Source: a virus
Taxonomy: Duplodnaviria; Heunggongvirae; Uroviricota; Caudoviricetes
Reading direction: 5' to 3' (one strand)
Virus record (IMG/VR): IMGVR_UViG_2698536651_000010
Coordinates: 1 to 19,760 of that record
Length of the DNA stretch: 19,760 nucleotides
Shown here: positions 3,565 through 15,816 of the stretch, piece after piece
How the letters are laid out: every line of letters begins with the position of its first letter
Numbering within the stretch: the first letter of the stretch is position 1
The notes under the pieces: model-generated
What the model was told of the DNA's origin: nothing
Seen by the model: the letters and a program-made list of their open reading frames with translations, nothing else
Databases searched by the model: none
Position numbers and translations under genes: made by a program

Positions 3565-5331
3565 ATGAACACCACACTGACACCCGCAGATCTCGATCCC
3601 CGTCGGCAGGCCATGCTGCTGTACTTTCAGGGATACCGCGTAGCCCGCATTGCTGAAATGCTGGGCGAGAAAGTTGCAACCGTTCACAGCTGGAAAAAAC
3701 GCGACAAGTGGGGTGACTATGGGCCGCTGGATCAGATGCAGCTCACCACCGCCGCACGCTACTGCCAGCTCATCATGAAGGAGCACAAAGAAGGGAAAGA
3801 TTTCAAAGAGATTGACCTGCTGGCGCGCCAGTCTGAGCGCCACGCGCGGATCGGCAAGTTTAACAATGGCGGCAACGAATCCGACTTAAACCCTAACGTC
3901 GCCAACCGCAACAAAGGCCCACGCCGTCAGCCGGAAAAGAATGTTTTCACCGATGAGCAGATTGAGAAGCTGGAAGAAATCTTCCATTCCTCCATGTTCA
4001 ACTACCAGCGCCACTGGTGGGAAGCCGGAAAAACCAACCGCATCCGCAACCTGCTGAAGTCACGCCAGATCGGCGCGACCTTTTACTTTGCCCGTGAAGC
4101 CCTGATTGACGCCCTGCTGACCGGACGTAACCAGATTTTCCTTTCCGCCAGCAAGGCACAGGCCCACGTCTTTAAGCAGTACATCATCGACTTCGCCAAA
4201 GAAGTGGAGGTGGAGTTGAAAGGCGATCCGATGGTGCTTCCTAACGGGGCCACGCTTTACTTCCTCGGCACCAATGCCCGCACGGCCCAGAGTTATCACG
4301 GCAACCTGTATCTGGATGAATATTTCTGGATACCGAAATTCCAGGAACTGCGCAAAGTGGCTTCCGGTATGGCTATTCACAAGAAATGGCGACAAACCTA
4401 TTTTTCCACGCCATCCAGCCTGACACACAGTGCTTATCCGTTCTGGTCCGGTGCGCTATTCAACCGTGGGCGCAACAAAGCCGATAAGGTGGACATCGAC
4501 CTGTCCCACAGCAATCTGGCCCCCGGCCTGCTGTGCGCAGACGGGCAATACCGCCAGATTGTCACCGTGGAAGATGCAGTGCGCGGCGGATGTAACCTGT
4601 TCGACCTCGATCAGTTACGCATGGAGTACAGCCCGGACGAATACCAGAACCTGCTGATGTGCGAGTTTGTGGACGATCTCGCGTCTGTGTTCCCACTCAG
4701 CGAGCTGCAGGCGTGCATGGTGGACAGCTGGGAAGTCTGGACCGACTTTCATGCACTGGCACTGCGCCCATTTGGCTGGCGCGAAGTGTGGATCGGTTAT
4801 GACCCGGCGAAAGGTACGCAGAACGGCGACAGTGCCGGATGTGTGGTGGTGGCACCGCCAGCCGTGCCGGGCGGCAAGTTCCGCATTCTTGAGCGTCACC
4901 AGTGGCGCGGGATGGACTTTCGCGCCCAGGCTGACGCCATCAAAAAACTGACCGAACAGTACAACGTGACCTATATCGGCATCGACTCAACCGGCGTTGG
5001 TCACGGAGTTTATGAGAACGTGAAAGCGTTCTTTCCTGCCGTCCGGGAGTTTGTCTACAACCCCAACGTTAAAAACGCCCTGGTACTCAAGGCCTACGAC
5101 ATTATCAGCCACCGCCGTCTGGAGTTTGACGCCGGGCACACCGACATTGCGCAGTCATTCATGGCAATCCGTCGCGCCACCACCGCCAGTGGCAACCGCC
5201 CGACCTATGAAGCCAGCCGCAGCGAAGAAGCCAGCCACGCCGATCTGGCCTGGGCAACGATGCACGCACTGTTTAACGAACCGCTGCAGGGCGAATCCGC
5301 CAATACCAGCAATATTGTGGAGATTTTTTGA
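3565..5331 (+). CDS. P: Terminase ATPase (large) subunit gpP
   Basis: 588 aa. N-terminus MNTTLTPADLDPRRQAMLLYFQGYRVARIAEMLGE... is typical of P2 gpP. Length matches. Stop TGA overlaps the Q start (TGATG). Confidence 0.95.
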   Translation: MNTTLTPADLDPRRQAMLLYFQGYRVARIAEMLGEKVATVHSWKKRDKWGDYGPLDQMQLTTAARYCQLIMKEHKEGKDFKEIDLLARQSERHARIGKFNNGGNESDLNPNVANRNKGPRRQPEKNVFTDEQIEKLEEIFHSSMFNYQRHWWEAGKTNRIRNLLKSRQIGATFYFAREALIDALLTGRNQIFLSASKAQAHVFKQYIIDFAKEVEVELKGDPMVLPNGATLYFLGTNARTAQSYHGNLYLDEYFWIPKFQELRKVASGMAIHKKWRQTYFSTPSSLTHSAYPFWSGALFNRGRNKADKVDIDLSHSNLAPGLLCADGQYRQIVTVEDAVRGGCNLFDLDQLRMEYSPDEYQNLLMCEFVDDLASVFPLSELQACMVDSWEVWTDFHALALRPFGWREVWIGYDPAKGTQNGDSAGCVVVAPPAVPGGKFRILERHQWRGMDFRAQADAIKKLTEQYNVTYIGIDSTGVGHGVYENVKAFFPAVREFVYNPNVKNALVLKAYDIISHRRLEFDAGHTDIAQSFMAIRRATTASGNRPTYEASRSEEASHADLAWATMHALFNEPLQGESANTSNIVEIF

Positions 5332-6359
5332 TGGGAAAGAGTAAGAAGAACCGCGCTGCGGCGACGAAACAGATCCAGCTTAAAAGTCAAACTACAGCCG
5401 AAGCATTCAGCTTCGGCGATCCCGTTCCTGTTCTGGACCGCCGAGAATTACTGGACTATGTGGAATGCGTACAGATGGACCGTTGGTATGAGCCACCAGT
5501 GAGTTTCGACGGGCTGGCGCGCACCTTCCGCGCTGCCGTGCATCACAGTTCCCCGATTGCAGTAAAGTGCAACATTCTGACCAGTACCTATATCCCTCAT
5601 CCGCTGCTCAGCCAACAGGCTTTTTCGCGTTTTGTGCAGGACTATCTGGTATTTGGTAACGCCTATCTGGAGAAACGCACGAACCGCTTCGGTGAAGTTA
5701 TCGCCCTTGAACCTGCGCTGGCAAAATACACCCGACGCGGGTTAGACCTGGATACCTACTGGTTTGTGCAATACGGTATGACACCCCAGCCGTATCAGTT
5801 CACGAAAGGCAGCATTTTTCATCTGATGGAACCGGACATCAACCAGGAGATCTACGGCCTGCCCGGTTATCTTTCTGCCATTCCGTCAGCTCTGCTCAAC
5901 GAGTCCGCCACGCTGTTCCGCCGCAAGTATTACATTAACGGCAGTCATGCTGGCTTCATCATGTACATGACCGATGCCGCGCAGAACCAGGAGGACGTGA
6001 ACAACCTCCGCAATGCGATGAAAAGCGCCAAAGGCCCTGGCAACTTCCGCAACTTGTTTATGTACTCGCCTAACGGCAAAAAGGACGGGCTTCAGATCAT
6101 TCCTCTGTCAGAAGTCGCGGCGAAGGATGAGTTTCTGAATATCAAGAACGTGAGCCGGGATGACATGATGGCGGCGCATCGTGTGCCACCGCAAATGATG
6201 GGGATTATGCCTAATAATGTTGGAGGGTTTGGGGATGTAGAGAAAGCTGCTAATGTTTTTGTGAGGAATGAACTCATCCCTTTACAAAAAAGACTAGAAG
6301 AGCTGAACGAATGGATAAATGAAGAAGTTATTAATTTCGTGAGTTATTCAATTACCTAA
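5331..6359 (+). CDS. Q: Portal protein gpQ
   Basis: About 342 aa from ATG 5331 (the ORF track starts at TTG 5328). Size and position downstream of gpP match the P2 portal; translationally coupled to P. Confidence 0.9.
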   Translation: MGKSKKNRAAATKQIQLKSQTTAEAFSFGDPVPVLDRRELLDYVECVQMDRWYEPPVSFDGLARTFRAAVHHSSPIAVKCNILTSTYIPHPLLSQQAFSRFVQDYLVFGNAYLEKRTNRFGEVIALEPALAKYTRRGLDLDTYWFVQYGMTPQPYQFTKGSIFHLMEPDINQEIYGLPGYLSAIPSALLNESATLFRRKYYINGSHAGFIMYMTDAAQNQEDVNNLRNAMKSAKGPGNFRNLFMYSPNGKKDGLQIIPLSEVAAKDEFLNIKNVSRDDMMAAHRVPPQMMGIMPNNVGGFGDVEKAANVFVRNELIPLQKRLEELNEWINEEVINFVSYSIT

Positions 6360-6364
6360 TAAAC

Positions 6365-6395
6365 AAAAAGGCCATTAAATGGCCTTTTTGTTTTT
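6365..6395. terminator. Bidirectional rho-independent terminator shared by convergent Q and retron RT
   Basis: AAAAAGGCCATTAAATGGCCTTTTTGTTTTT: a GC stem flanked by an A-run and a T-run. It overlaps the last codons of the RT. Confidence 0.7.
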
Positions 6396-7349
6396 AGGAA
6401 AAAGAACACTTAGATCAACCCCATATGTTTCAGACATTTTATTTGAGAAAGTCATCAATTTTCTATAGTTTTTCTTGTCTACACTTTTAACAAACGCAAT
6501 AAGTCCTTTAACATGTTCGAAATCAGAATTTCTTTTTACCGCCAGATAATGGATCTTACTTCTAATTTCGCGATAACGTATTCTGCCAACTCCAACATTA
6601 TCAATAGATAAAACGAGCCCAGTAACCTCCTTCCTTGCTTTGGGGCCATGAATCGCAACTTTATTATAATTAACCTTCAAAGATTCACTTGGTATTATAG
6701 AGCATACAAATGACTTAGCTTTAAGTATTTTTTTTAAAGATTGAGCAGATAAAGTCAAATCATCGGCATATCGAGTAAATACGATCCCCTTACTACCTGC
6801 ATATCCATGTATTCTATAATCTAATTTAGTTAAAACAAGATTCGCAATCTTTGGAGAAGATGGTGCACCTTGAGGTAGCGAACCATTAAATGAACACAAT
6901 CTTGCTAAAGCATTAGAAATAGTAGAGTTATACCCCAGAGAATGAAAAACAGTATAGATTTTCTCTATCAGAATAGTATTAAAACAATCTTCTAAATCAA
7001 TATTTAATACATAGTTAGCTCCTACATGTGGGCTGGCATTATTTAATATTGATTGCCCTTTTTCAAAGCCTTTGGAAAATGGGGATGAATGTAACTTATC
7101 AAGGATGTTTCTTAACACCCAAGCTTGCAATGCCTTCAGCTCACGTGATGGCTGTGAAATGATGCGGGATCTCTTGCCATCTCTTTTTGGCAACGAATAA
7201 ACCTTATAGTATTTGTCAGCACGATAAATGTACAACCGGAGTATGTCTACTGATAAACGCATTTCTCTAGACATATCCTCTAAAGAGGACATAACAGGCA
7301 ATCCAAGATTGCGTAAGCGAAAAACCTGAGATGGTGTTGCGGAAGTCAT
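6375..7349 (-). CDS. Retron-type reverse transcriptase
   Basis: 324 aa. RT motifs: NIDLEDCF (motif A), LPQGAPSSPKIANL (motif B), RYADDLTLS (YADD catalytic motif C). Also the retron-associated NAxxH (NASPH) and VTG (EVTGLVL) motifs. ATG sits 2 nt after the a2 repeat, whose AAGGG acts as the SD. Region is AT-rich. Confidence 0.9.
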   Translation of the reverse strand: MTSATPSQVFRLRNLGLPVMSSLEDMSREMRLSVDILRLYIYRADKYYKVYSLPKRDGKRSRIISQPSRELKALQAWVLRNILDKLHSSPFSKGFEKGQSILNNASPHVGANYVLNIDLEDCFNTILIEKIYTVFHSLGYNSTISNALARLCSFNGSLPQGAPSSPKIANLVLTKLDYRIHGYAGSKGIVFTRYADDLTLSAQSLKKILKAKSFVCSIIPSESLKVNYNKVAIHGPKARKEVTGLVLSIDNVGVGRIRYREIRSKIHYLAVKRNSDFEHVKGLIAFVKSVDKKNYRKLMTFSNKMSETYGVDLSVLFPKNKKAI

Positions 7350-7351
7350 GA

Positions 7352-7510
7352 GCGCACCCTTACGTCATAAAAATCAGATTCCGAAGTGAAAGGAGAACAT
7401 CGGGAGATGTTCTCCTTTCAATGAGGGAACTGGTAAAACTTCAGATTGTATGTAGGACAGCGAAACACTGTCCAGTGAACTTCCGGAGAAGCCACTCGCT
7501 AAGGGTGCGC
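7352..7510 (-). ncRNA. Retron msr-msd non-coding RNA flanked by a1/a2 inverted repeats
   Basis: 11-bp inverted repeats GCGCACCCTTA (7352-7362) and TAAGGGTGCGC (7500-7510). Perfect 15-bp stem with 4-nt loop at 7387-7420 (msd-like hairpin). Short hairpin GGACAG/CTGTCC at 7455-7473 (msr-like). A G follows a1 in the transcript. Confidence 0.8.
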
Positions 7511-8404
7511 AAAACGCATCCTATCATAGTGGAGTATTGTTTTACCACGATTTTCGAAGTTCATCATATCCAGTCGTAGATTGTCCAAAGCCTTTCGATC
7601 AAAATGCTCAAGAACGTATTGCATACCAATTTCTGTAATATGGTATCCTTGAACTGAACGTCTAATTATTGACTCTTTAATCAAGCTTGAAATAACAGAC
7701 TTAACGATAATTTCACAAAGAATAGCATCTTTCTTAGTCACCAAATGTAATAGCTCATATAGAAGTATATTATCTATACCATCCATCAAATATATACACG
7801 GCAGTATAAAACGCCGAGCGTGAAGAATATTATCTATTGAGTGATTAACTGGGTTATTTTTTTTGATGTCATTAATACTTTTTATAATTCTATTATAAAA
7901 AGCTTTACCTGTACTCAAGCTTTCAAGAGTCGACAAATCTCCTCGCAATACTGCACCGCTATTAGCACGCCGAAGCAGTTTTATAGGCCCATAATTAAGA
8001 AAGCTTTTTTTAAGTTTGAATTTGTCATCCTGAAGACATATCATTTTTTTGCACAGTTTTTCATTATTTGAAAATGCGCCCAATTCAGCGAAAGAACCTG
8101 GGCTTTCAGGAATAATAATAATAACATCGACTGAATCAGCTAAAATATTCTCCAAACTTAAAAGACTATGCTGACCTTGTCCATACAAAAGCTCATCAAA
8201 CAACTCCTCAGGATAGAATATTTCTATTTTGGGATGTGTTTCCAACACTCTTTTAACTTTATTTCTACAAAAAAACGGATCATTCAAATCGCCCCCGCAA
8301 AGGAAAACAGTAACTTTATTTTTATTTTTCTGTTGAAAAAGCCGACTTTTAATTAAATTTGCCAGATTTTGCTTCTGCAACTCCGGAATAGTTTTCTTTT
8401 TCAT
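7499..8404 (-). CDS. Putative retron effector: N-terminal NDT-like (nucleoside deoxyribosyltransferase/LOG-like) domain plus C-terminal probable winged-helix DNA-binding domain
   Basis: About 301 aa from ATG 8402-8404 (track ORF starts at GTG 8410). Glycine-rich strand VTVFLCGG and IIIPESPGSFAELGAF resemble the NDT/LOG-type active-site region. Stop TAG (7499-7501) lies inside the a1 repeat. Very AT-rich. Confidence 0.7.
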   Translation of the reverse strand: MKKKTIPELQKQNLANLIKSRLFQQKNKNKVTVFLCGGDLNDPFFCRNKVKRVLETHPKIEIFYPEELFDELLYGQGQHSLLSLENILADSVDVIIIIPESPGSFAELGAFSNNEKLCKKMICLQDDKFKLKKSFLNYGPIKLLRRANSGAVLRGDLSTLESLSTGKAFYNRIIKSINDIKKNNPVNHSIDNILHARRFILPCIYLMDGIDNILLYELLHLVTKKDAILCEIIVKSVISSLIKESIIRRSVQGYHITEIGMQYVLEHFDRKALDNLRLDMMNFENRGKTILHYDRMRFAHP

Positions 8405-8918
8405 ATCCACTTTTCCTCAGAATGATCCCATCTTTTATACAACATTCAAATCTGAGTTTCCACCCGCTGCGCGCGCTCGTATCCCCGCCACGCCTGCCCG
8501 CTTTATGTAGTGGTTTTCATGCACCTGCATGACATAAGCAAAAGCACGCCAGTTCTGGCTGACTTCAGCAAAAACGATCCTCAAACGATCATGCGATCTC
8601 ATGCGTCATAGTCATGCGCTGCCAAGGGAAGCGTAAATCCGTATCTGAATGACTGCTGAAAAGCGAATCATACGGGTTTACAAAGATGAAAGTTCGCTGT
8701 GAGCGAGAAGCGAACCTTGCAACTTTGTTGGCACAGTTTTAACACCAATTTTTTGAGGATAGCTAGAAAACTTGTGGCATAAAGGATCAGTTTCCCGATC
8801 GAACTTTTTATCAAGAAGGGCTCATAGCAATCGCCAGAAGAAGTGATGTTAAAGTATTGAGCTCGGCGTTAAGATTAAATAAATTACAGACTAATCCAAT
8901 GTTTTGTGGAAGGATAAG

Positions 8919-9962
8919 ATGGCAGTCAAGCGCGCATACTACGGTAACGATAGTGACCGAGACTACTTAGAGCGGATATTTCAGTCAGCTAACATTAACT
9001 TTCTCATCGGATCAGGTGCATCCCTCCCAGCGATTAAAGTACTGGGGACAATCGAAACGGATCTTCAGCAGCTTATTAATGATGAACAGGAAGATGAATA
9101 CTTAAGGATGGCAGCTGACTTTTTGTCAGATGTTTGGCTACCTCATGAATGCATGTTGAAGCGCGGCTACGGCACCCCCTTCGCACCTCAGGTGATCACC
9201 GATTTGGAATGTACCCGTGCAAATTATGATGCATTTATGTCTTCACTGGAAAAGATACTGACCCGCCGCCGAACTGGCCTACTTCCGAGGCGTATTAACG
9301 TTTTTACAACTAATTATGATTTATTCATCGAAGAAGCTGCCACACGTAATAACAATATTCTTTTTAATGATGGATTCAATAGAAGAGCAAGTATTTTGGG
9401 AGATGCGGAATTTGATGCGGGTAGCTTTAATCATTCTGTAAGTGCAACCGGAAATCTGTATAATTATAAAGTTGAGCTTCCTACTGTTAACCTTATAAAA
9501 CTTCATGGTTCGCTCTCTTGGCAGCATTCTAAAGGGAAAATCATTTATCGTATTGCAGATATTAAGCCGCTTGACTTTCCCACCCTAGCCGAAATGAAAG
9601 GATGGGTACTTGCTCATGCACTTATTCTTCCACGTAAGGAGAAGTTTAAAGAGACTCTACTACAGAACGTTTATTATGATTTACTGAGAACCTATTCCAA
9701 CGAGCTTGATAAAGAAGCAACTTTACTAATTGTCTTTGGGTTCTCATTTGCTGATGAGCACATTGAAACGATAACTAAAAAAGCCCTGCGCAACGCCACC
9801 CTGAAGCTACTGATCTTTGCTTTCGATGAGGCCAGTGTTAACGGCTTTATGGAGAAATTTCGGGATTACTCAAACGTAGAGATTATTTATCGGCCGGGAA
9901 GAAATGTTGATTTTCCGGTAATGAATAACATTATCACGTGCTATCTGGGAGGCTCGAGATGA
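8919..9962 (+). CDS. SIR2-family (sirtuin-like) NADase of a SIR2-HerA defence pair
   Basis: ATG 8919 with AAGGA SD (track ORF starts at TTG 8904). Motifs FLIGSGAS (NAD-binding glycine loop), VFTTNYD, KLHGS (catalytic His), LIVFGFSFAD. Stop overlaps the HerA start (ATGA). Confidence 0.85.
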   Translation: MAVKRAYYGNDSDRDYLERIFQSANINFLIGSGASLPAIKVLGTIETDLQQLINDEQEDEYLRMAADFLSDVWLPHECMLKRGYGTPFAPQVITDLECTRANYDAFMSSLEKILTRRRTGLLPRRINVFTTNYDLFIEEAATRNNNILFNDGFNRRASILGDAEFDAGSFNHSVSATGNLYNYKVELPTVNLIKLHGSLSWQHSKGKIIYRIADIKPLDFPTLAEMKGWVLAHALILPRKEKFKETLLQNVYYDLLRTYSNELDKEATLLIVFGFSFADEHIETITKKALRNATLKLLIFAFDEASVNGFMEKFRDYSNVEIIYRPGRNVDFPVMNNIITCYLGGSR

Positions 9963-11818
9963 GCAGGCATTTTACTGAAGAGGAAGCGGTGCTCCGTATA
10001 GGCGAAGTCTGTGAGGTTTCTGGACGCGCTGTGACAATTTTGGTCGATAAAAACAAAAATCTCAGTGACTTGTTTTATCAGGGAAAAGTTCTAAGAAATG
10101 TATCAGTGGGTAGCTTCATTGAGATCAAAAAAGGTTTCATGAGCCTGATCGGCAAGGTTGAAGCGGAACGAATCATTGAGGAAAAACATCTCGCTGGGAG
10201 CGGCAGTGATGCCTGGCGATATCGGCGATACCTGACCTCTACTCTTACGGGTTACATTGATCGTACTGGTTGCTTCATTGGTGGTTCGCGTGAACTACCT
10301 CTCATCGGCAATGAAGTCTTCGTGGTAACTGAAGAGATGATACAGACGGTTCATCAGATAGCTGATGCAGACGAAACTGTAATGAGGTTTACTCGTACAG
10401 ATCTTGAAGATATTGAAATTGCACTACCAATCAATGGTCTTATTAATTCCCACATTGCCATTTTCGGTAATACAGGCAGCGGAAAGTCAAATACCCTAGC
10501 CGCGCTATACAAAGCAGGTATTGCCCAAGTTAAACATATTCTCGGCAACCACTTTAGTGAAAGATGCAAATTTATTCTATTCGACTTTAATGGAGAATAT
10601 ACTGCCCCACGCTGTATTACTGACGAGAAGACGGTTTATAATCTCAACACGCACCATGCAAATGGTGACAAACTTCCTCTACCCAGAGAGGTTCTACTTG
10701 AGCATGATATGCTCTCAGTTCTAACCGATGCAACAGACAAAACACAGAAACCTTTCCTGAAGAGAGTTCTTGAGTTTCGCAAGAAAGTGATGACCGCTGA
10801 CAATCCTCTTGAGTTTATGCGCAATATCCTGAAGAAAAAAGTCAGACAAAATCTCTTTAGTAGCGACAAACCCAAATGCGATACTATAAATCAGTTTCTT
10901 AGCCCAATTTTCAAAGATGACCCAGAACTTATATCTGATCTTGAGTATCATTCAACTGCATATAAATGGAAATTGAGGGGTGGTAGTATTTTCAATACAG
11001 AAGCTGATACTGAGCGCTCCTATCTATTCAGTCTTGCAAGCAATTTTTCATTTAAAACTGATATGATTGAAGAACTGTTGGACTTTATGTACTTACAGTT
11101 AATACAGGAATATTTATCTAACAAGTCTAACCCTGAACATATTTCACCAGTTATAAATAGAATGAGTGCTAACCGTAAAGATATAGCCAAAATATTTGAT
11201 ACTTCCGGACAGTCTGATTTTTGGGGTGAACATAATTTCACGGTTGTGAATCTAAATATGGTTAATATAACCATGAAAAAAACGCTTCCTCTTTTGATAG
11301 CCAAGTGGGCTTACAATATGAAGAAAATGTCTACAGAGAAATCTACACTGCACATCATTATAGATGAAGCCCACAATATTTTGTCTAATACTTCTTTTCG
11401 GGAAACGGAAAGTTGGAGAGATTATCGTCTGGAAACTTTTGAGGAAATCATAAAGGAGGGGAGAAAATTTGGAGTTTTTATCACAATTTCCAGTCAACGC
11501 CCTAATGATATATCGTCGACAATCATATCCCAAGCACACAATTATTTTATTCATCGCCTTATTAATCAGAATGATCTGTACGCAATTGAAAAATCAGTAT
11601 CATATATAGATCGACTGACTGAAGAGTCGATTCCAACGCTATCTACAGGAACCTGTATTTTTAGTGGTATCGTCTGCCCCATGCCGCTCAAATTAAGGGT
11701 AGCTGAACTTCCAATTGAAGAAAAACCTAAGAGTAATACTATTTCCTTCAACGATTTAATACCTGAGAGGCTGGGAGAGGATGACCAGAGCGACTACGTA
11801 ATAACCAGCCCTCACTAA
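9959..11818 (+). CDS. HerA-like (FtsK/HerA superfamily) ATPase, partner of SIR2
   Basis: ATG 9959 with GGGAGG SD (track starts at GTG 9938). Walker A GNTGSGKS and Walker B/DEAH-like HIIIDEAH. About 620 aa, typical of HerA partners in SIR2-HerA systems. Confidence 0.85.
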   Translation: MSRHFTEEEAVLRIGEVCEVSGRAVTILVDKNKNLSDLFYQGKVLRNVSVGSFIEIKKGFMSLIGKVEAERIIEEKHLAGSGSDAWRYRRYLTSTLTGYIDRTGCFIGGSRELPLIGNEVFVVTEEMIQTVHQIADADETVMRFTRTDLEDIEIALPINGLINSHIAIFGNTGSGKSNTLAALYKAGIAQVKHILGNHFSERCKFILFDFNGEYTAPRCITDEKTVYNLNTHHANGDKLPLPREVLLEHDMLSVLTDATDKTQKPFLKRVLEFRKKVMTADNPLEFMRNILKKKVRQNLFSSDKPKCDTINQFLSPIFKDDPELISDLEYHSTAYKWKLRGGSIFNTEADTERSYLFSLASNFSFKTDMIEELLDFMYLQLIQEYLSNKSNPEHISPVINRMSANRKDIAKIFDTSGQSDFWGEHNFTVVNLNMVNITMKKTLPLLIAKWAYNMKKMSTEKSTLHIIIDEAHNILSNTSFRETESWRDYRLETFEEIIKEGRKFGVFITISSQRPNDISSTIISQAHNYFIHRLINQNDLYAIEKSVSYIDRLTEESIPTLSTGTCIFSGIVCPMPLKLRVAELPIEEKPKSNTISFNDLIPERLGEDDQSDYVITSPH

Positions 11819-11831
11819 TTAACAAAGTGCT

Positions 11832-11851
11832 GAAGCGGTAACGACCGCTTC
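11832..11851. terminator. Candidate hairpin between convergent HerA and DinI-like genes
   Basis: GAAGCGGT-AACG-ACCGCTTC, an 8-bp perfect stem. No strong U-tract on either side, so terminator function is uncertain. Confidence 0.3.
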
Positions 11852-11962
11852 TAGCACAAAGCGGACGATCACTTATCAAAATGCCCGCCCACCTTACGCC
11901 TCGTTTCACTCGTTGCCCAAACTAGCCCCCATCAGAATGAATCCTCCTGGAGGCAACGTTTC

Positions 11963-12196
11963 TTAATGCAGCCAGCTGTCGTCTTCCCACACTTTCTGCA
12001 TAATTTTCATCACTTGTTTTCTTTCTTCATCCAGTTGCAGTCCGGTCAGTTCCACACCGTTAGAGCTACCTTTGCGGATACGAATTACCGTTTTGGGATA
12101 CAGGGGGCGCAGATTGCGGTAAAGCTCGGATTCAAGGGCGTCCATGGTAGACTGGCTAATCTTCTGCTCTTTATCGATCATTATTTCAATGCGCAT
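11963..12196 (-). CDS. DinI-family protein
   Basis: 77 aa from the internal ATG (MRIEIMIDK...), with GAGGTG SD. Aligns in pattern with E. coli DinI (MRIE..., ...DAL..EL..., ...EERKQ...W...D.W). The track ORF carries an unlikely 24-aa N-terminal extension. Confidence 0.7.
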   Translation of the reverse strand: MRIEIMIDKEQKISQSTMDALESELYRNLRPLYPKTVIRIRKGSSNGVELTGLQLDEERKQVMKIMQKVWEDDSWLH

Positions 12197-12547: not shown

Positions 12548-14962
12548 TTAATACAGATCCCGCCACTTATCATCTTCCTGCAAACGCTGGTTCCGATAGA
12601 AGATACGCAGGCCTGCTCCTGACGGAATACTGCCGCCGCGAAGGAGTAAATCGACCTCTTTCTCGCTACTATCAAATCCTCTGGACTTCAGCTCATAGAC
12701 GAGCTGCTGTCGCTGATGGTCTGTAATTCGCTGTTTGTAGTCTTTACGCCGTTTCGGTTTAACCAAGCATAACCTTGCTGCCAGTTCCCGGCGCTCTTTT
12801 TTGCTCATACTGTGCAGGTAATCGTGCAACTCCTTGTCATCCATGCGGGTGATATCCGTTCTGGTATCCCCATCAGCTGATTTGTCTTTCCCTTGTTGAT
12901 TCAAATTTTCAGCAAGGGGACAGTTATTGCCACGAGTCCAAGGGGCGCAAGCGCCCTGGTCGGCTGCCGCCTCCTGAACGTCAACGGCCTTACGAACTAT
13001 TTTCCACTTCACTGCATGAGTGCAGATCTTGCCCTCTGCAATGGGTGACCAGATGCCATAAATACGAATACCGTGATCACCATAGGCGGTCGGCTCTTCG
13101 TTGATTTCATAAGCGGTTCTGATCAAGTGATATTTGCGGGGAACCAGTACGCCGCCCTGCTTCATGATGTAGGTGGCAAAACAACCAGCATCAGCAGCAG
13201 CCAGGATGGCATCAAGGCGCGGGTTATCCAGTACCGGCGCACCTGCTTTTTTGTCACCCTGTTGCCTTGCCGCCTGACCAGCCAGCAATCGCAGTTCACG
13301 GTAAGCCTGACGCCCCGGAATGCCAAAGAAGCGGAATTGCTGAACACGATGCAGAGACGCCCAGGCATTAACGTATTCAGCGTTATCACGCAGGGATTTA
13401 CCCGTTTCCTTACTGATCTCGCCAGCCAGACCACGCCCGTCAATATTCTTACTGATATATTTCGCAATGTAGCTTGTCGGCGTTCCTTTGCGCGGGTTTA
13501 TCAGCTCAGACTTAAAGCGTGGCCCCGTGTTATTGCCCAGCTCCTCGCGGTCTTCACGGATGGCAAACTTACGCAACAATGCAGTAATGGCGCGGCGGTC
13601 TTTTTTGCGCATGAAACACAACAGGTGCCAGTGAACTGTGCCGTCATGATGCGGCTCAGCCACCCGCACGCCATACCAGCGCAACCCGGCTTTGTGCATA
13701 GCCTTACGAAATGCAGCAAACATGCCGACCAGATAATCGCTGCTTTGTCTTACTGTCGCGTTGGTCCAGGTCGGGTTTGGCCTACCGTTATTTAGCGTGG
13801 AATGGAAACGTGACGGACAGGTGATGGTGTAGAAAACGGCGCAGTCACCACGCATTTCCGCGATAAGCTCCAGGCCTTTAACACAGGTCATCATCTCGTT
13901 GCGGCGATGCGCCGGGTTGCTGCTGCTGGCGTTTACCACATCCTCCATGTTCAGCGTGTCGCCGTCTTCGTTCACCAGTTCATGAGAACGGAAAAACTCC
14001 AGCGACTTACGGCGCTGCTCACGTTTATGCATCACGGCTTCATAGCTGACATAGGGAGATGCTTTTTTGCTGACCAGGCAGACAGCACGCAACTGCTCTT
14101 CCCGCCATTCGCAACGCATCTTCCATAATTTCCGATACCACCAGTCGGCGCACAGCATACGCGCCAGCGACCCCGGAATGAGTTCATAGGGCACGGGTTT
14201 ACGGCGGTTTCTTTTCCGGCGGAGTTGCTCAAACGCAGGCGGTATGACATCCAGTCGCAGGGTTTCTGCTGCCACCTTTTCCCATGTCTTGCGGATTTCT
14301 TCTGGCTTAACGTCATCGGTGGCATACAAATCACCACAAGCGGCATCAAGGCACATGCTCATATGCGCAGCGACAAGGGTAGACAGGCGCTTCACCTGAT
14401 CCTGACTCATTTCAGGCAGGATAAGCAGGCCATCCAGCCCTTCATGGCTTGCCATAAAGCGAAAAGAAGTGGATAGCTGACAGTCGCGGACATGCTCCAG
14501 TCGTTCCAGACATGGCTTAATCGTCTCACGCAAATAGCGGGAATAAGCCTTTGGCCTGCCCAGGCTGCTGAAATATTCAATACGTTGCATCAGCGGCTTG
14601 CTGATATGGGAAGGCTGGGCATTGACGTCAGCCAGAATGACCATGTCTGGATTAAAACGCTGCTGCTCATGCGCCAGCTTTGCCCGGCTAATGAGCTTAT
14701 CCTGCTCCATTTCGCGCTGGACAGGATCACGGGATTCATTAAAGAAATAACGCTCCCAGACCTGATCACTCAGTGCCTCGCGGCGCAGTTGTTCCTGCTC
14801 GTTATCGGCAGCGTACAGAGTGATCAGGTTTGAAAGTGCAGAAACCGGCGCAACTTCCGCCGGGTCCTGATAAGGGTTAATAGCCTTTTTCGGGCTGTTC
14901 CATGAGAATGCTGCGGCGACCTCGTTAAAGCCGCTGCAGTTGTTCATATCATCATGGCTCAT
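12548..14962 (-). CDS. A: Replication initiation endonuclease (P2 gpA / 186 RepA family, HUH rolling-circle type)
   Basis: 804 aa. HUH-type motif ...[11 protein letters not shown].... Large size and position at the end of the early operon fit the family. ATGA overlap with dam upstream. Confidence 0.9.
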
Positions 14963-15816
14963 GCACGCACTCCGTATACGGCTGAACTATCCACGCCACG
15001 CGAAGGATCAAATCCCACCCAGCAGCGCGGCCCGGAAACAGCGATGATTTCAGTTGCAGATTTACTCTCACCAGCTGCTACGCCGATGCTGCGTTTTGCC
15101 TTGATGTAGTGGTGAGTAAAATTGCGATACAGCGAACGGATCAGGGATGTGTCACTGTTAGAAACAATGACCGGATGTCCTTCTGATGACCGATGTTCAA
15201 GCACAGATGCCAGGCGATACTGGTCATCTTCAGTGAAGCCATCAGTGTGATAGCCGGAAAACGTACCGTCATAAGGCGGATCGCAATACACAACATCCCC
15301 CGCGTGCAACATCGCCAGCGTTTCATCGAAGCTGGCGCAGATAAACGTTGCCCGCTGGGCTTTCTCTGCAAATGCGCGAATTTCTTTTTCAGGGAAATAC
15401 GGATTTTTATAATTACCGTAGGGAATGTTGAAATGCCCGCTCTTGTTATAGCGACATAACCCACGGTAACCATGTCGATTGAGATACAGGAAATATACCG
15501 CTTTCATGAAATTAGTAATTTCAGTTGAGTAGTTAAACTCCTGCCTTATGTTGTAATAAGCCACCTCCCTGTTTGCTTCCTCAAATAAAACTCTGGCGCG
15601 AGATATAAATAATTCACAATCAGCGGCAACCTTTTTATAGAGGTTGATTAAATCAGGATTAATATCCGCAACCAGATAGCTGGGGTAATCCGTTTCCATC
15701 ATCACTGCACAGGAACCCGCGAAAGGTTCAACCAGTCGCAGGCCAGCAGGAAGGTGTTTTTTCAGTTCTGGCATAATGGCGGTTTTATTTCCCGCCCATT
15801 TCAGGATGGTGCTCAT
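14959..15816 (-). CDS. dam: DNA adenine methyltransferase (Dam-like, N6-adenine)
   Basis: 285 aa. N-terminal SAM-binding motif LKWAGNK and catalytic DPPY. Translationally coupled to both neighbours. Confidence 0.9.

What the first reader, a model, noticed from the sequence alone, without database searches (positions are those of the whole stretch)
8919..11818. SIR2-HerA anti-phage pair next to the retron
Two translationally coupled genes (ATGA overlap): a SIR2-like protein with the glycine loop, TTNYD and LHGS motifs, and a HerA-like ATPase with Walker A GNTGSGKS and Walker B IIIDEAH. This matches the described SIR2-HerA NAD-depleting defence architecture. It is transcribed divergently from the retron, giving two abortive-infection-type systems in one prophage hotspot.
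Basis: partly seen in the sequence, partly recalled or inferred. Interest (0 to 1): 0.6.

Follow-up and report, generated by a model that had tools for sequence, protein, structure and literature searches.

The report
SIR2-HerA phage defence in P2 prophage
These two overlapping genes are an ordinary, intact copy of the known SIR2-HerA anti-phage system, carried in the well-known cargo hotspot of a P2-like E. coli prophage. The finding is correct but not new.

Summary
A 347-aa SIR2_2 protein (8919-9962) and a 619-aa HerA ATPase (9959-11818) lie on the + strand and share an ATGA stop/start overlap.

PADLOC's SIR2 and HerA defence models match end to end (E 6e-211 and 6e-267). The best sequence and fold matches in the PDB are the subunits of the three solved SIR2-HerA complexes. 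N132 and H196 align with the experimentally proven catalytic dyad of S. aureus Sir2. HerA lies directly downstream on the same strand in 79 of 80 loci from many phyla.

The window is 100% identical to E. coli VG888-46E9. The pair occupies the old/tin position of a P2-like prophage, between cos and gene A. These exact proteins are already listed as P2-hotspot cargo by Rousset et al. 2022.

It is a divergent lineage: about 16-22% identity to solved systems, and below NCBIfam equivalog cut-offs. I found no direct experiments on it.

The retron pairing is incidental. The cos site separates two independently swapping cargo slots.

Most likely mechanism: abortive infection through HerA-controlled NAD+ hydrolysis by SIR2. 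Interest is low.

The parts
8919..9962 (+). SIR2 gene (347 aa, SIR2_2 family; = WP_028985770). Glycine loop G31-S35, catalytic N132/D134 in TTNYD, H196 in KLHGS.
   Evidence: ORF and motifs. Pfam PF13289 E 1.3e-12. PADLOC SIR2 PDLC04080 E 6e-211, positions 1-347 of 347. phmmer to SaSir2 8yhx_G E 3.5e-21, with N226/H287 aligned to N132/H196. Residues invariant in 36 homologues. AF2 model pLDDT 80; the top 37 Foldseek hits are all SIR2 chains of SIR2-HerA entries.
9959..11818 (+). HerA gene (619 aa; = WP_029364119). N-terminal beta-barrel (about residues 13-122), Walker A G170-S177 (K176), FDFNGEY D209, Walker B D469/E470, SQRP 512-515 (R514).
   Evidence: Pfam DUF87/HerA E 3.7e-19. PADLOC HerA PDLC04097 E 6e-267. 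PDB sequence hits to Paenibacillus, S. aureus and E. coli SIR2-associated HerA. Invariant columns. AF2 model pLDDT 73, with Foldseek hits to HerA of SIR2-HerA, DUF4297-HerA and archaeal HerA.
9959..9962 (+). ATGA stop/start overlap (translational coupling of SIR2 and HerA).
   Evidence: Read directly from the sequence. In close relatives the HerA match starts on the last base of the SIR2 match (L001-L009, L012).
8688..8918 (+). Upstream leader that travels with the cassette. The left limit of DNA shared with a non-prophage copy is 8688. Candidate sigma-70 promoter: -35 ATGTTA 8846-8851, 18-nt spacer, -10 TAAGAT 8870-8875. SD GGAAGGA at about 8906-8912.
   Evidence: The 91%-identical copy beside ypjA shares 8688-11841. 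The block GAAGAAGTGATGTyAA...GCGTTAAGAT...TACAGA is conserved in Enterobacterales loci with unrelated flanks. The consensus scan did not call a promoter here, so promoter function is inference.
11832..11851 (+). Hairpin GAAGCGGT-AACG-ACCGCTTC, 14 nt after the HerA stop. Possible transcript end or cassette edge. There is no T-run, so it is not a canonical intrinsic terminator.
   Evidence: Sequence read. Not reported by the terminator scan. Similarity to the ypjA-island copy ends at 11841.
8476..8494 (-). Context: cos cohesive-end sequence of the P2-like prophage (GGCGTGGCGGGGATACGAG on the minus strand). It separates the retron slot from the SIR2-HerA slot.
   Evidence: Local alignment of 8460-8526 to the reverse-complemented cosR/cosL junction of P2 NC_001895. 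Block 8468-8620 is conserved in P2-like phages of Klebsiella, Salmonella and Yersinia.
6375..8404 (-). Context: neighbouring type II-A (St85-family) retron. NDT-like effector 8404-7499, msr/msd ncRNA about 7510-7352, RT 7349-6375.
   Evidence: PADLOC NDT_II-A E 2.6e-97 and RT_II-A E 4.6e-123. NCBIfam St85 effector and RT above cut-off. 11-nt a1/a2 inverted repeat and 27-nt hairpin; fold z-score -8.0.

Best explanation
This is an intact two-gene SIR2-HerA anti-phage module, carried as lysogenic-conversion cargo in the old/tin position of a P2-like prophage of E. coli.

Shown here:
- The two genes are translationally coupled.
- SIR2 keeps the NAD-binding glycine loop and the N/D...H catalytic residues.
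- HerA keeps the N-terminal barrel, Walker A/B and the SQRP arginine motif.
- The gene pair is conserved as a unit across phyla, and it moves as a cassette between a prophage hotspot and a chromosomal island.

Inferred from characterised relatives (S. aureus, Paenibacillus, E. coli Nezha and type III systems):
- The proteins assemble into a HerA-ring/SIR2-oligomer complex that is quiescent in uninfected lysogens.
- A superinfecting phage activates the complex through phage proteins or DNA ends or intermediates sensed via HerA's ATPase.
- SIR2 then hydrolyses NAD+ to ADP-ribose and nicotinamide, possibly assisted by a DNA-nicking or nuclease activity of the complex.
- The infected cell arrests or dies before progeny are released, which protects the lysogenic population and the resident prophage.
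For: - **Domain and system profiles.** Pfam SIR2_2 and DUF87. PADLOC SIR2 and HerA full-length matches, E 6e-211 and 6e-267. The best NCBIfam families are SIR2_antiphage and HerA_antiphage.
- **Catalytic residues.** N132/H196 align to SaSir2 N226/H287, whose H287A mutant loses NADase activity (PMC11514289). They also correspond to the putative N163/D165/H212 of Paenibacillus SIR2 (PMC11472057). All are invariant in 36 homologues. HerA K176, D209, D469/E470 and R514 are invariant in 31 homologues.
- **Folds.** The top 37 PDB hits for the SIR2 model are SIR2 chains of SIR2-HerA entries; ThsA, FAM118B and canonical sirtuins come only after. The HerA model hits HerA of SIR2-HerA complexes first.
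- **Synteny.** HerA is immediately downstream on the same strand in 79 of 80 species-level loci. The single exception has only 94 bases of contig left after the SIR2 match.
- **Context.** The pair sits in the P2 gpA-gpQ hotspot (PMC9122126). WP_028985770 and WP_029364119 are listed in that paper's hotspot table. The position and orientation match old/tin of P2.
- **Mechanism precedents.**
Against: - There is no experiment on this lineage that I could tie to these sequences. No paper text contains the accessions.
- Identity to every solved or characterised system is low: Foldseek 16-22%.
- Scores are far below NCBIfam equivalog cut-offs: 99.8 against 500 and 138.7 against 800.
- Zhang et al. 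2026 found that only 4 of 8 E. coli Sir2-HerA clusters protected in their assay, and that subtypes differ in which activities they use. I could not assign this pair to one of their clusters.
- At 347 aa this SIR2 is shorter than the solved ones (381-428 aa), so the assembly may differ.
- The consensus scan found no promoter upstream.
Confidence: 0.85

Rival explanations
1. It is a SIR2-HerA defence module, but the decisive effector step is DNA damage, and NAD+ hydrolysis is secondary or merely gated. The DNA damage would come from a HerA nickase or a nuclease activity of the complex, together with ATP consumption.
For: The type III E. coli Sir2-HerA needs a HerA nickase, since D218A abolishes defence (PMC13434337). 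Paenibacillus and E. coli complexes show ATP-inhibited nuclease activity (PMC11472057). The FDFNGEY aspartate D209 is invariant here.
Against: The SIR2 catalytic residues are just as invariant. SIR2-dependent NAD+ depletion is the activity common to all characterised systems. The correspondence of D209 to type III D218 is not established: the Walker A lysine to aspartate spacing is 33 here and 30 there.
Confidence: 0.1
2. The pair is intact but gives no measurable defence: silent or non-functional cargo, like the four E. coli Sir2-HerA clusters that gave no protection in one study.
For: Only 4 of 8 E. coli clusters protected against a 110-phage panel (PMC13434337). No consensus promoter was detected upstream.
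Against: Both ORFs are full length with every catalytic residue intact. The DNA is 99.8-100% identical in 13 complete genomes, and a second allele at 91% is maintained elsewhere. The pair is conserved across phyla. A sequence block that could be a promoter is conserved upstream.
Confidence: 0.04
3. It is not a defence system: a housekeeping or phage-replication function, such as a sirtuin-type protein deacylase working with a HerA DNA-end-resection or translocase motor.
For: HerA homologues work in DSB repair with NurA, and sirtuins deacylate proteins. Weak NCBIfam hits to repair HerA: E 2e-20, 72.6 bits against a cut-off of 800.
Against: - The annotation shows no NurA, Mre11 or Rad50 neighbour.
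- There is no Pfam hit to canonical SIR2 PF02146, only SIR2_2.
- The protein has only three scattered cysteines (78, 98, 341), so there is no Zn-binding Cys4 module.
- Canonical sirtuin structures match only at E >= 0.01, against 1e-13 for defence SIR2.
- The locus is non-essential variable cargo that replaces old/tin.
Confidence: 0.01

Closest known systems
S. aureus Sir2-HerA (PDB 8YHX/8YHO; PMC11514289)
   Same: It is the best PDB sequence match for SIR2 (E 3.5e-21) and a strong one for HerA (E 6e-26). The catalytic N226/H287 align with N132/H196. It is a two-gene operon in which HerA binding allosterically activates the Sir2 NADase.
   Different: About 20-22% identity over the fold alignment. 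SaSir2 is 428 aa against 347 aa here, and its N-terminal third aligns poorly. The host is Gram-positive. The oligomeric state here is unknown.
Paenibacillus sp. 453MF SIR2-HerA (PDB 8W9L/8WIV/8WLD; PMC11472057)
   Same: It is the best PDB match for HerA by sequence (E 1.2e-27) and by fold (E 1.5e-25). It has the same HAS-barrel, Walker A/B and SQRP elements, and an N/D/H triad in SIR2.
   Different: 18-19% identity. Its HerA is 696 aa against 619 aa here. The SIR2 match is weak by sequence (E 8.5e-5).
E. coli Nezha / Gao-2020 SIR2+HerA (PDB 8J4U, 8SU9; NCBIfam NF042942/NF042943)
   Same: Same species, same architecture and the same mobile-element hotspots: SIR2+HerA is listed in both the P4 and P2 hotspots. 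Structural hits have probability 1.0.
   Different: It is not an equivalog: 99.8 bits against a cut-off of 500, and 138.7 against 800. Identity is 16-20%. The curated P2-hotspot 'SIR2 + HerA (Gao)' entry has a different HerA, 26% identical over 227 aligned columns.
E. coli Sir2-HerA types I-III (Zhang et al. 2026, PMC13434337)
   Same: These are divergent E. coli Sir2-HerA lineages, about 13-22% identical to Nezha and to each other, which is the same divergence range as found here. They show an abortive-infection phenotype.
   Different: The type III residue numbers (HerA K188/D218, Sir2 N238) do not fit K176/D209/N132 here. Membership of type I, type II or one of the four non-protective clusters is unresolved.
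P2 old/tin lysogenic-conversion genes
   Same: Identical genomic position (between cos and gene A) and the same orientation relative to cos. Both are non-essential exclusion cargo of a P2-like prophage.
   Different: The proteins are unrelated: Old is an ATPase-TOPRIM nuclease and Tin blocks growth of T-even phages. The mechanism differs.

Membership tests
SIR2-HerA anti-phage system | Adjacent, co-directional SIR2 and HerA genes forming one operon | tested here: met
   ATGA overlap at 9959-9962. HerA lies directly downstream on the same strand in 79 of 80 related loci across phyla.
SIR2-HerA anti-phage system | SIR2_2-type domain with an NAD-binding glycine loop and catalytic Asn/Asp...His | tested here: met
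   PF13289 E 1.3e-12. G31/G33/S35, N132/D134 and H196 are invariant in 36 sequences. N132/H196 align to SaSir2 N226/H287.
SIR2-HerA anti-phage system | HerA/FtsK-type ATPase with an N-terminal barrel, Walker A, Walker B and an arginine motif | tested here: met
   PF01935 E 3.7e-19. K176, D469/E470 and R514 are invariant. The model has a beta-rich region at residues 13-122 and hits HerA structures at E 1e-25.
SIR2-HerA anti-phage system | Match to system-specific profiles (PADLOC SIR2 and HerA models) | tested here: met
   PDLC04080 E 6.1e-211 (positions 1-347 of 347). PDLC04097 E 5.9e-267 (protein residues 9-606, profile positions 3-616 of 618).
SIR2-HerA anti-phage system | Physical SIR2-HerA supramolecular complex with HerA-dependent NADase activation | not testable with these tools
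   Only monomer models were made. This needs co-purification, cryo-EM or NADase assays.
SIR2-HerA anti-phage system | Phage protection with NAD+ depletion, dependent on the SIR2 and HerA active sites | not testable with these tools
   No experiment on these accessions was found in the searchable literature.
Gao-2020/Nezha SIR2+HerA equivalog (NCBIfam NF042942/NF042943/NF042944) | Score above the curated equivalog cut-off | tested here: not met
   99.8 bits against 500, 138.7 against 800 and 117.5 against 850. It is therefore a different lineage of the same kind.
E. coli Sir2-HerA type III (Zhang 2026) | HerA K188 (ATPase), HerA D218 (nickase) and Sir2 N238 (NADase) positions | tested here: not met
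   The equivalent residues here are K176, D209 and N132. This is an indirect test, by residue numbering only.
Canonical sirtuin deacylase (Pfam SIR2 PF02146) | PF02146 match and a Zn-binding Cys4 module | tested here: not met
   No PF02146 hit. There are only three cysteines, at 78, 98 and 341. Human SIRT2 structures match only at E >= 0.01.
HerA-NurA DNA end-resection system | NurA nuclease partner, and a HerA score above the repair-HerA cut-offs | tested here: not met
   The annotated neighbours are a SIR2 family protein and a DinI-like protein, with no NurA. NF040937 scores 72.6 against 800 and NF040819 scores 60 against 970.
P2-like prophage gpA-gpQ defence hotspot cargo | Located between the portal gene Q and the replication gene A, next to cos, and variable between otherwise syntenic prophages | tested here: met
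   Annotation of the identical genome. cos alignment to P2. Alternative cargo in sister prophages. Hotspot definition and the exact accessions in PMC9122126.

The most novel reading that the evidence does not exclude
This compact lineage (347-aa SIR2, 16-22% identical to every solved system, below equivalog cut-offs) may be a functionally distinct, still uncharacterised SIR2-HerA subtype. It could have its own stoichiometry, trigger and phage spectrum.

It is also paired across cos with a type II-A retron. That retron's relative Retron-Eco1 is reported to hydrolyse NAD+, so this prophage may carry two independently triggered NADases. Such a pair could give layered or synergistic abortive infection, but both would share one weakness: phage NAD+-reconstitution pathways.
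Probability: 0.25. Interest if true: 0.35.

Novelty: already known. Interest (0 to 1): 0.15.

Why it matters
It mainly confirms that the scan recognises real defence cargo. The locus illustrates how P2-like prophages carry two swappable defence slots on either side of cos, and how one SIR2-HerA cassette moves between a prophage and a chromosomal island.

For specialists the only open points are these:
- which E. coli Sir2-HerA subtype this compact lineage is;
- what triggers it;
- whether having two putative NAD+-depleting systems (retron II-A and SIR2-HerA) in one prophage is redundant or complementary.

None of this changes current understanding.

Tried and rejected
- **Rfam.** A scan of the whole window at gathering thresholds gave no hits. 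The retron ncRNA had to be located by inverted repeats and folding instead.
- **Promoter and terminator scan, 8300-12100.** It found nothing convincing upstream of SIR2 or downstream of HerA, and counts were no higher than in shuffles. The candidate promoter rests only on cross-locus conservation.
- **Assignment to Zhang 2026 types I-III.** No supplementary files or accessions are held. Residue numbering excludes type III only.
- **Rousset's curated P2 system 14.** I tested whether its 'SIR2 | DUF87 (Gao)' entry is this system. It is not: the HerA differs (26% identity over 227 aligned columns; K183/D207 against K176/D209). The exact accessions do appear in the raw hotspot table.
- **Literature search for the four WP accessions.** No results.
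- **Phage-genome collection.** No deposited phage carries this pair. Only the cos-proximal block matches.
- **Considered and rejected.** Canonical sirtuin, HerA-NurA repair and DUF4297-HerA (see the membership tests).
Full report
**1. What is in the sequence**

The + strand between 8919 and 11818 holds two ORFs.
- The first starts at ATG 8919, after GGAAGGATAAG, and stops at 9960-9962 (347 aa).
- The second starts at ATG 9959 and stops at 11816-11818 (619 aa).
- The two therefore share the four bases ATGA at 9959-9962.

- Protein 1: GSGAS at residues 31-35, TTNYD at 130-134, LHGS at 195-198.
- Protein 2: GNTGSGKS at 170-177 and IIIDEAH at 466-472.

The window is 100% identical to E. coli VG888-46E9 (NZ_CP128581.1). 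RefSeq calls the same two CDSs there: 'SIR2 family protein' WP_028985770 and 'ATP-binding protein' WP_029364119.

**2. Is it more than chance?**

Yes.
- Pfam gives SIR2_2 (E 1.3e-12; 48.4 bits against a cut-off of 24.5) and DUF87/HerA central domain (E 3.7e-19; 70.1 bits against 23.2).
- PADLOC's defence models match end to end. SIR2 PDLC04080 scores E 6.1e-211 over positions 1-347 of 347. HerA PDLC04097 scores E 5.9e-267.
- In an alignment of 36 SIR2 homologues (40-90% identical), the glycine loop (G31, G33, A34, S35), T130-T131-N132-Y133-D134 and K194/H196-G197-S198 are invariant.
- In 31 HerA homologues (51-89% identical), the invariant elements are the whole Walker A (G170-S177), the D209-F-N-G-E-Y214 block, D469-E470-A-H-N (Walker B) and S512-Q-R514-P.

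**3. Relation to characterised systems**

*Sequence matches in the PDB.*
- The best match for the SIR2 is S. aureus Sir2 (8yhx_G, E 3.5e-21). E. coli Nezha Sir2 (8j4u_A, 1.5e-11) and Paenibacillus SIR2 (8w9l_A, 8.5e-5) follow.
- In the printed alignment, SaSir2 N226 and H287 fall on N132 and H196.
- PMC11514289 reports N226/H287 as the conserved dyad and shows that mutating H287 abolishes NADase activity.
- HerA matches Paenibacillus HerA (8wiv, 1.2e-27), S. aureus HerA (8yho, 6.2e-26), DUF4297-associated HerAs, Nezha HerA and Sulfolobus HerA.

*Fold matches.*
- The AlphaFold models have pLDDT 80.3 (SIR2) and 72.8 (HerA).
- The top 37 PDB matches for the SIR2 model are all SIR2 chains from the three solved SIR2-HerA systems (E 1e-13 to 2e-8). 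ThsA, FAM118B, Avs5 and human SIRT2 follow, from E 1e-4 upward.
- The HerA model hits HerA of SIR2-HerA complexes first (E 1.5e-25). HerA from DUF4297-HerA complexes and archaeal HerA follow.

*Divergence.*
- Identities in these fold alignments are only 16-22%.
- NCBIfam's best families are SIR2_antiphage and HerA_antiphage, but scores are far below the equivalog cut-offs (99.8 against 500; 138.7 against 800).
- The pair is therefore a divergent lineage of the known kind, not the Gao/Nezha equivalog. This also explains the generic RefSeq names.

**4. The gene pair is a conserved unit**

- A scan of one genome per species found 382 relatives of the SIR2, and 80 loci were kept.
- tblastn with the window's HerA finds it immediately downstream on the same strand in 79 of the 80 loci. 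The exception (L038) has only 94 bases of contig left after the SIR2 match.
- The hosts span Enterobacterales, Alpha- and Gammaproteobacteria, Acidobacteriota, Bacteroidota, Bdellovibrionota, Elusimicrobia, Spirochaetes and Firmicutes.

**5. Genomic context**

The window is a P2-like prophage inserted next to rcdA/ybjJ. The gene order is:
1. terminase P (3565-5331) and portal Q (5328-6359);
2. the retron;
3. cos;
4. SIR2-HerA;
5. the DinI-like gene, a small hypothetical gene, replication gene A (12548-14962), and the rest.

*The cos site.* Aligning 8460-8526 to the reverse-complemented cosR/cosL junction of P2 (NC_001895) places the 19-nt cohesive end at 8476-8494. The block 8468-8620 is the only part of the region shared with deposited P2-like phages.

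*Same place as old/tin.* In P2 itself, old and tin lie between cos and gene A, in the same orientation relative to cos as SIR2-HerA here. SIR2-HerA therefore replaces old/tin.

*A published hotspot.* Rousset et al. 2022 (PMC9122126) defined this gpA-gpQ region as a defence hotspot. Their hotspot table lists WP_028985770 together with WP_029364119 in several arrangements.

**6. The retron adjacency is incidental**

- Among 5,426 complete E. coli genomes, 18 carry at least 80% of the queried region (8411-11900), 13 of them at 99% identity or more.
- Only the source genome matches left of window 8468. The other twelve matches at 99% or more begin at 8468-8470, just left of the cos cohesive end, where the block shared with P2-like phages starts.
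- In sister prophages the portal-side slot holds other cargo, while the gpA-side slot keeps SIR2-HerA: a HIRAN protein plus a hypothetical, an AIPR protein, hypotheticals or a retron Ec67 RT-endonuclease.
- The 'hotspot' is thus two independently exchanging slots separated by cos.
- A 91%-identical copy of the cassette (window 8688-11841) lies outside any prophage. It sits beside ypjA, next to a restriction endonuclease, in E. coli 873.10. This marks the cassette limits and shows that it moves with about 230 bp of its own upstream DNA.
- That upstream DNA contains a block conserved among Enterobacterales loci with unrelated flanks: GAAGAAGTGATGTyAA ... GCGTTAAGAT ... TACAGA. I read it as a candidate promoter (-35 8846-8851, -10 8870-8875). 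The consensus scan did not call it, so this is inference.

**7. The neighbouring retron is complete**

- PADLOC types it II-A (NDT_II-A E 2.6e-97; RT_II-A E 4.6e-123).
- NCBIfam places both proteins in the St85 family, above cut-off.
- The ncRNA lies between the effector and RT genes. An exact 11-nt inverted repeat (7510-7500 and 7362-7352) encloses small hairpins and a 27-nt-arm hairpin. The MFE is -73.7 kcal/mol, with z = -8.0 against shuffles.
- Rfam has no match at gathering threshold.

**8. Mechanism**

*Shown here.* The architecture is intact, the active sites are invariant, and the pair is conserved and mobile as a unit.

*Inferred from characterised relatives.*
- HerA forms a ring that docks SIR2 oligomers.
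- Complex formation, phage cues, or both switch on the SIR2 NADase (PMC11514289 and PMC11472057).
- In the E. coli type III system, phage SSB (Gp2.5) and Gp5.9 trigger a HerA nickase and the NADase. ATP holds the NADase in check until DNA ends stimulate ATP consumption (PMC13434337).
- Sir2-HerA systems deplete NAD+ 7- to 17-fold, and phage NAD+-rebuilding pathways counter this (PMC13464706).

I therefore expect abortive infection by NAD+ depletion (confidence about 0.85 for the class-level mechanism). Unknown for this lineage are the trigger, the stoichiometry (its SIR2 is 347 aa against 381-428 aa in solved systems) and the contribution of DNA nicking.

**9. Rivals**

- A DNA-damage-first variant of the same system is possible (about 0.1).
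- Silent or non-protective cargo is unlikely given the conservation (about 0.04), although 4 of 8 E. coli clusters gave no protection in one study.
- A housekeeping sirtuin or repair-HerA role is effectively excluded. There is no PF02146 hit, no Cys4 zinc module, no annotated NurA neighbour, and the locus is variable, non-essential cargo.

**10. Verdict**

The system belongs to a known kind. It is detected by standard defence-finder profiles, sits in a published hotspot, and its exact proteins appear in a published hotspot table. Hence 'already known' and low interest.

What remains open:
- the subtype assignment (it is not type III by residue numbering);
- whether carrying two putative NADase systems on either side of cos matters. 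The retron side rests on the title of Carabias et al. 2024, as cited in PMC13464706, and on my own recollection that Retron-Eco1 is type II-A.

Noticed in passing
window 8460-8526 (cos core 8476-8494): The prophage cos site lies between the retron and SIR2-HerA. The published gpA-gpQ hotspot is therefore really two cargo slots: portal-side 6360-8467 and gpA-side about 8621-11960. In P2 itself only about 167 bp separate Q from cos, and all cargo (old, tin) is on the gpA side.
   Followed up: yes
window 6360-8467 compared with L002, L086, L087, L088: Sister prophages with the same SIR2-HerA carry different portal-side cargo: HIRAN protein plus hypothetical, an AIPR family protein, hypotheticals, or a retron Ec67 RT-endonuclease. 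The retron St85 plus SIR2-HerA combination occurs in only 1 of 5,426 complete E. coli genomes.
   Followed up: partly
window 7352-7510 (minus strand): The retron msr/msd ncRNA sits between the effector and RT genes. An exact 11-nt a1/a2 inverted repeat (GCGCACCCTTA / TAAGGGTGCGC) encloses a long 27-nt-arm hairpin. The fold z-score is -8.0. It is not recognised by any Rfam 15 family at gathering threshold.
   Followed up: partly
L083 (E. coli 873.10, NZ_CP061754.1) 5001-8153, equivalent to window 8688-11841: The same SIR2-HerA cassette, at 91% nucleotide identity, lies outside any prophage. It is in a chromosomal island beside ypjA, next to a restriction endonuclease, a TPR protein and an IS3 transposase. 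The cassette therefore moves between prophage and island contexts with its own 230-bp leader.
   Followed up: partly
window 8840-8895: An upstream block (GAAGAAGTGATGTyAA ... GCGTTAAGAT ... TACAGAyTAATCC) is conserved in Enterobacterales SIR2-HerA loci whose further flanks are unrelated. It may be a promoter or operator. The simple sigma-70 scan does not call it.
   Followed up: partly
window 8688-8722: A short inverted repeat (GTTCGCT ... AGCGAAC) lies exactly where similarity to the non-prophage copy of the cassette begins. It could be a terminator that insulates the cassette from cos-side transcription, or a recombination edge.
   Followed up: no
window 6375-8404 and 8919-11818: Both cos-flanking systems may target NAD+. 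The type II-A retron's relative Retron-Eco1 is reported to form NAD+-hydrolysing filaments (title cited in PMC13464706). If so, a single phage NAD+-reconstitution pathway could defeat both.
   Followed up: no
window 6361-6393: A perfect 16-bp palindrome (AAACAAAAAGGCCATT / AATGGCCTTTTTGTTT) lies between the portal stop and the convergent RT stop. It is probably a bidirectional terminator.
   Followed up: no
window 11963-12196 and 14959-15816: The prophage backbone also carries a DinI-like gene next to the cargo slot and a DNA adenine methylase downstream of gene A. These accessory genes are absent from the P2 reference segment examined (A, orf91, tin, old).
   Followed up: no
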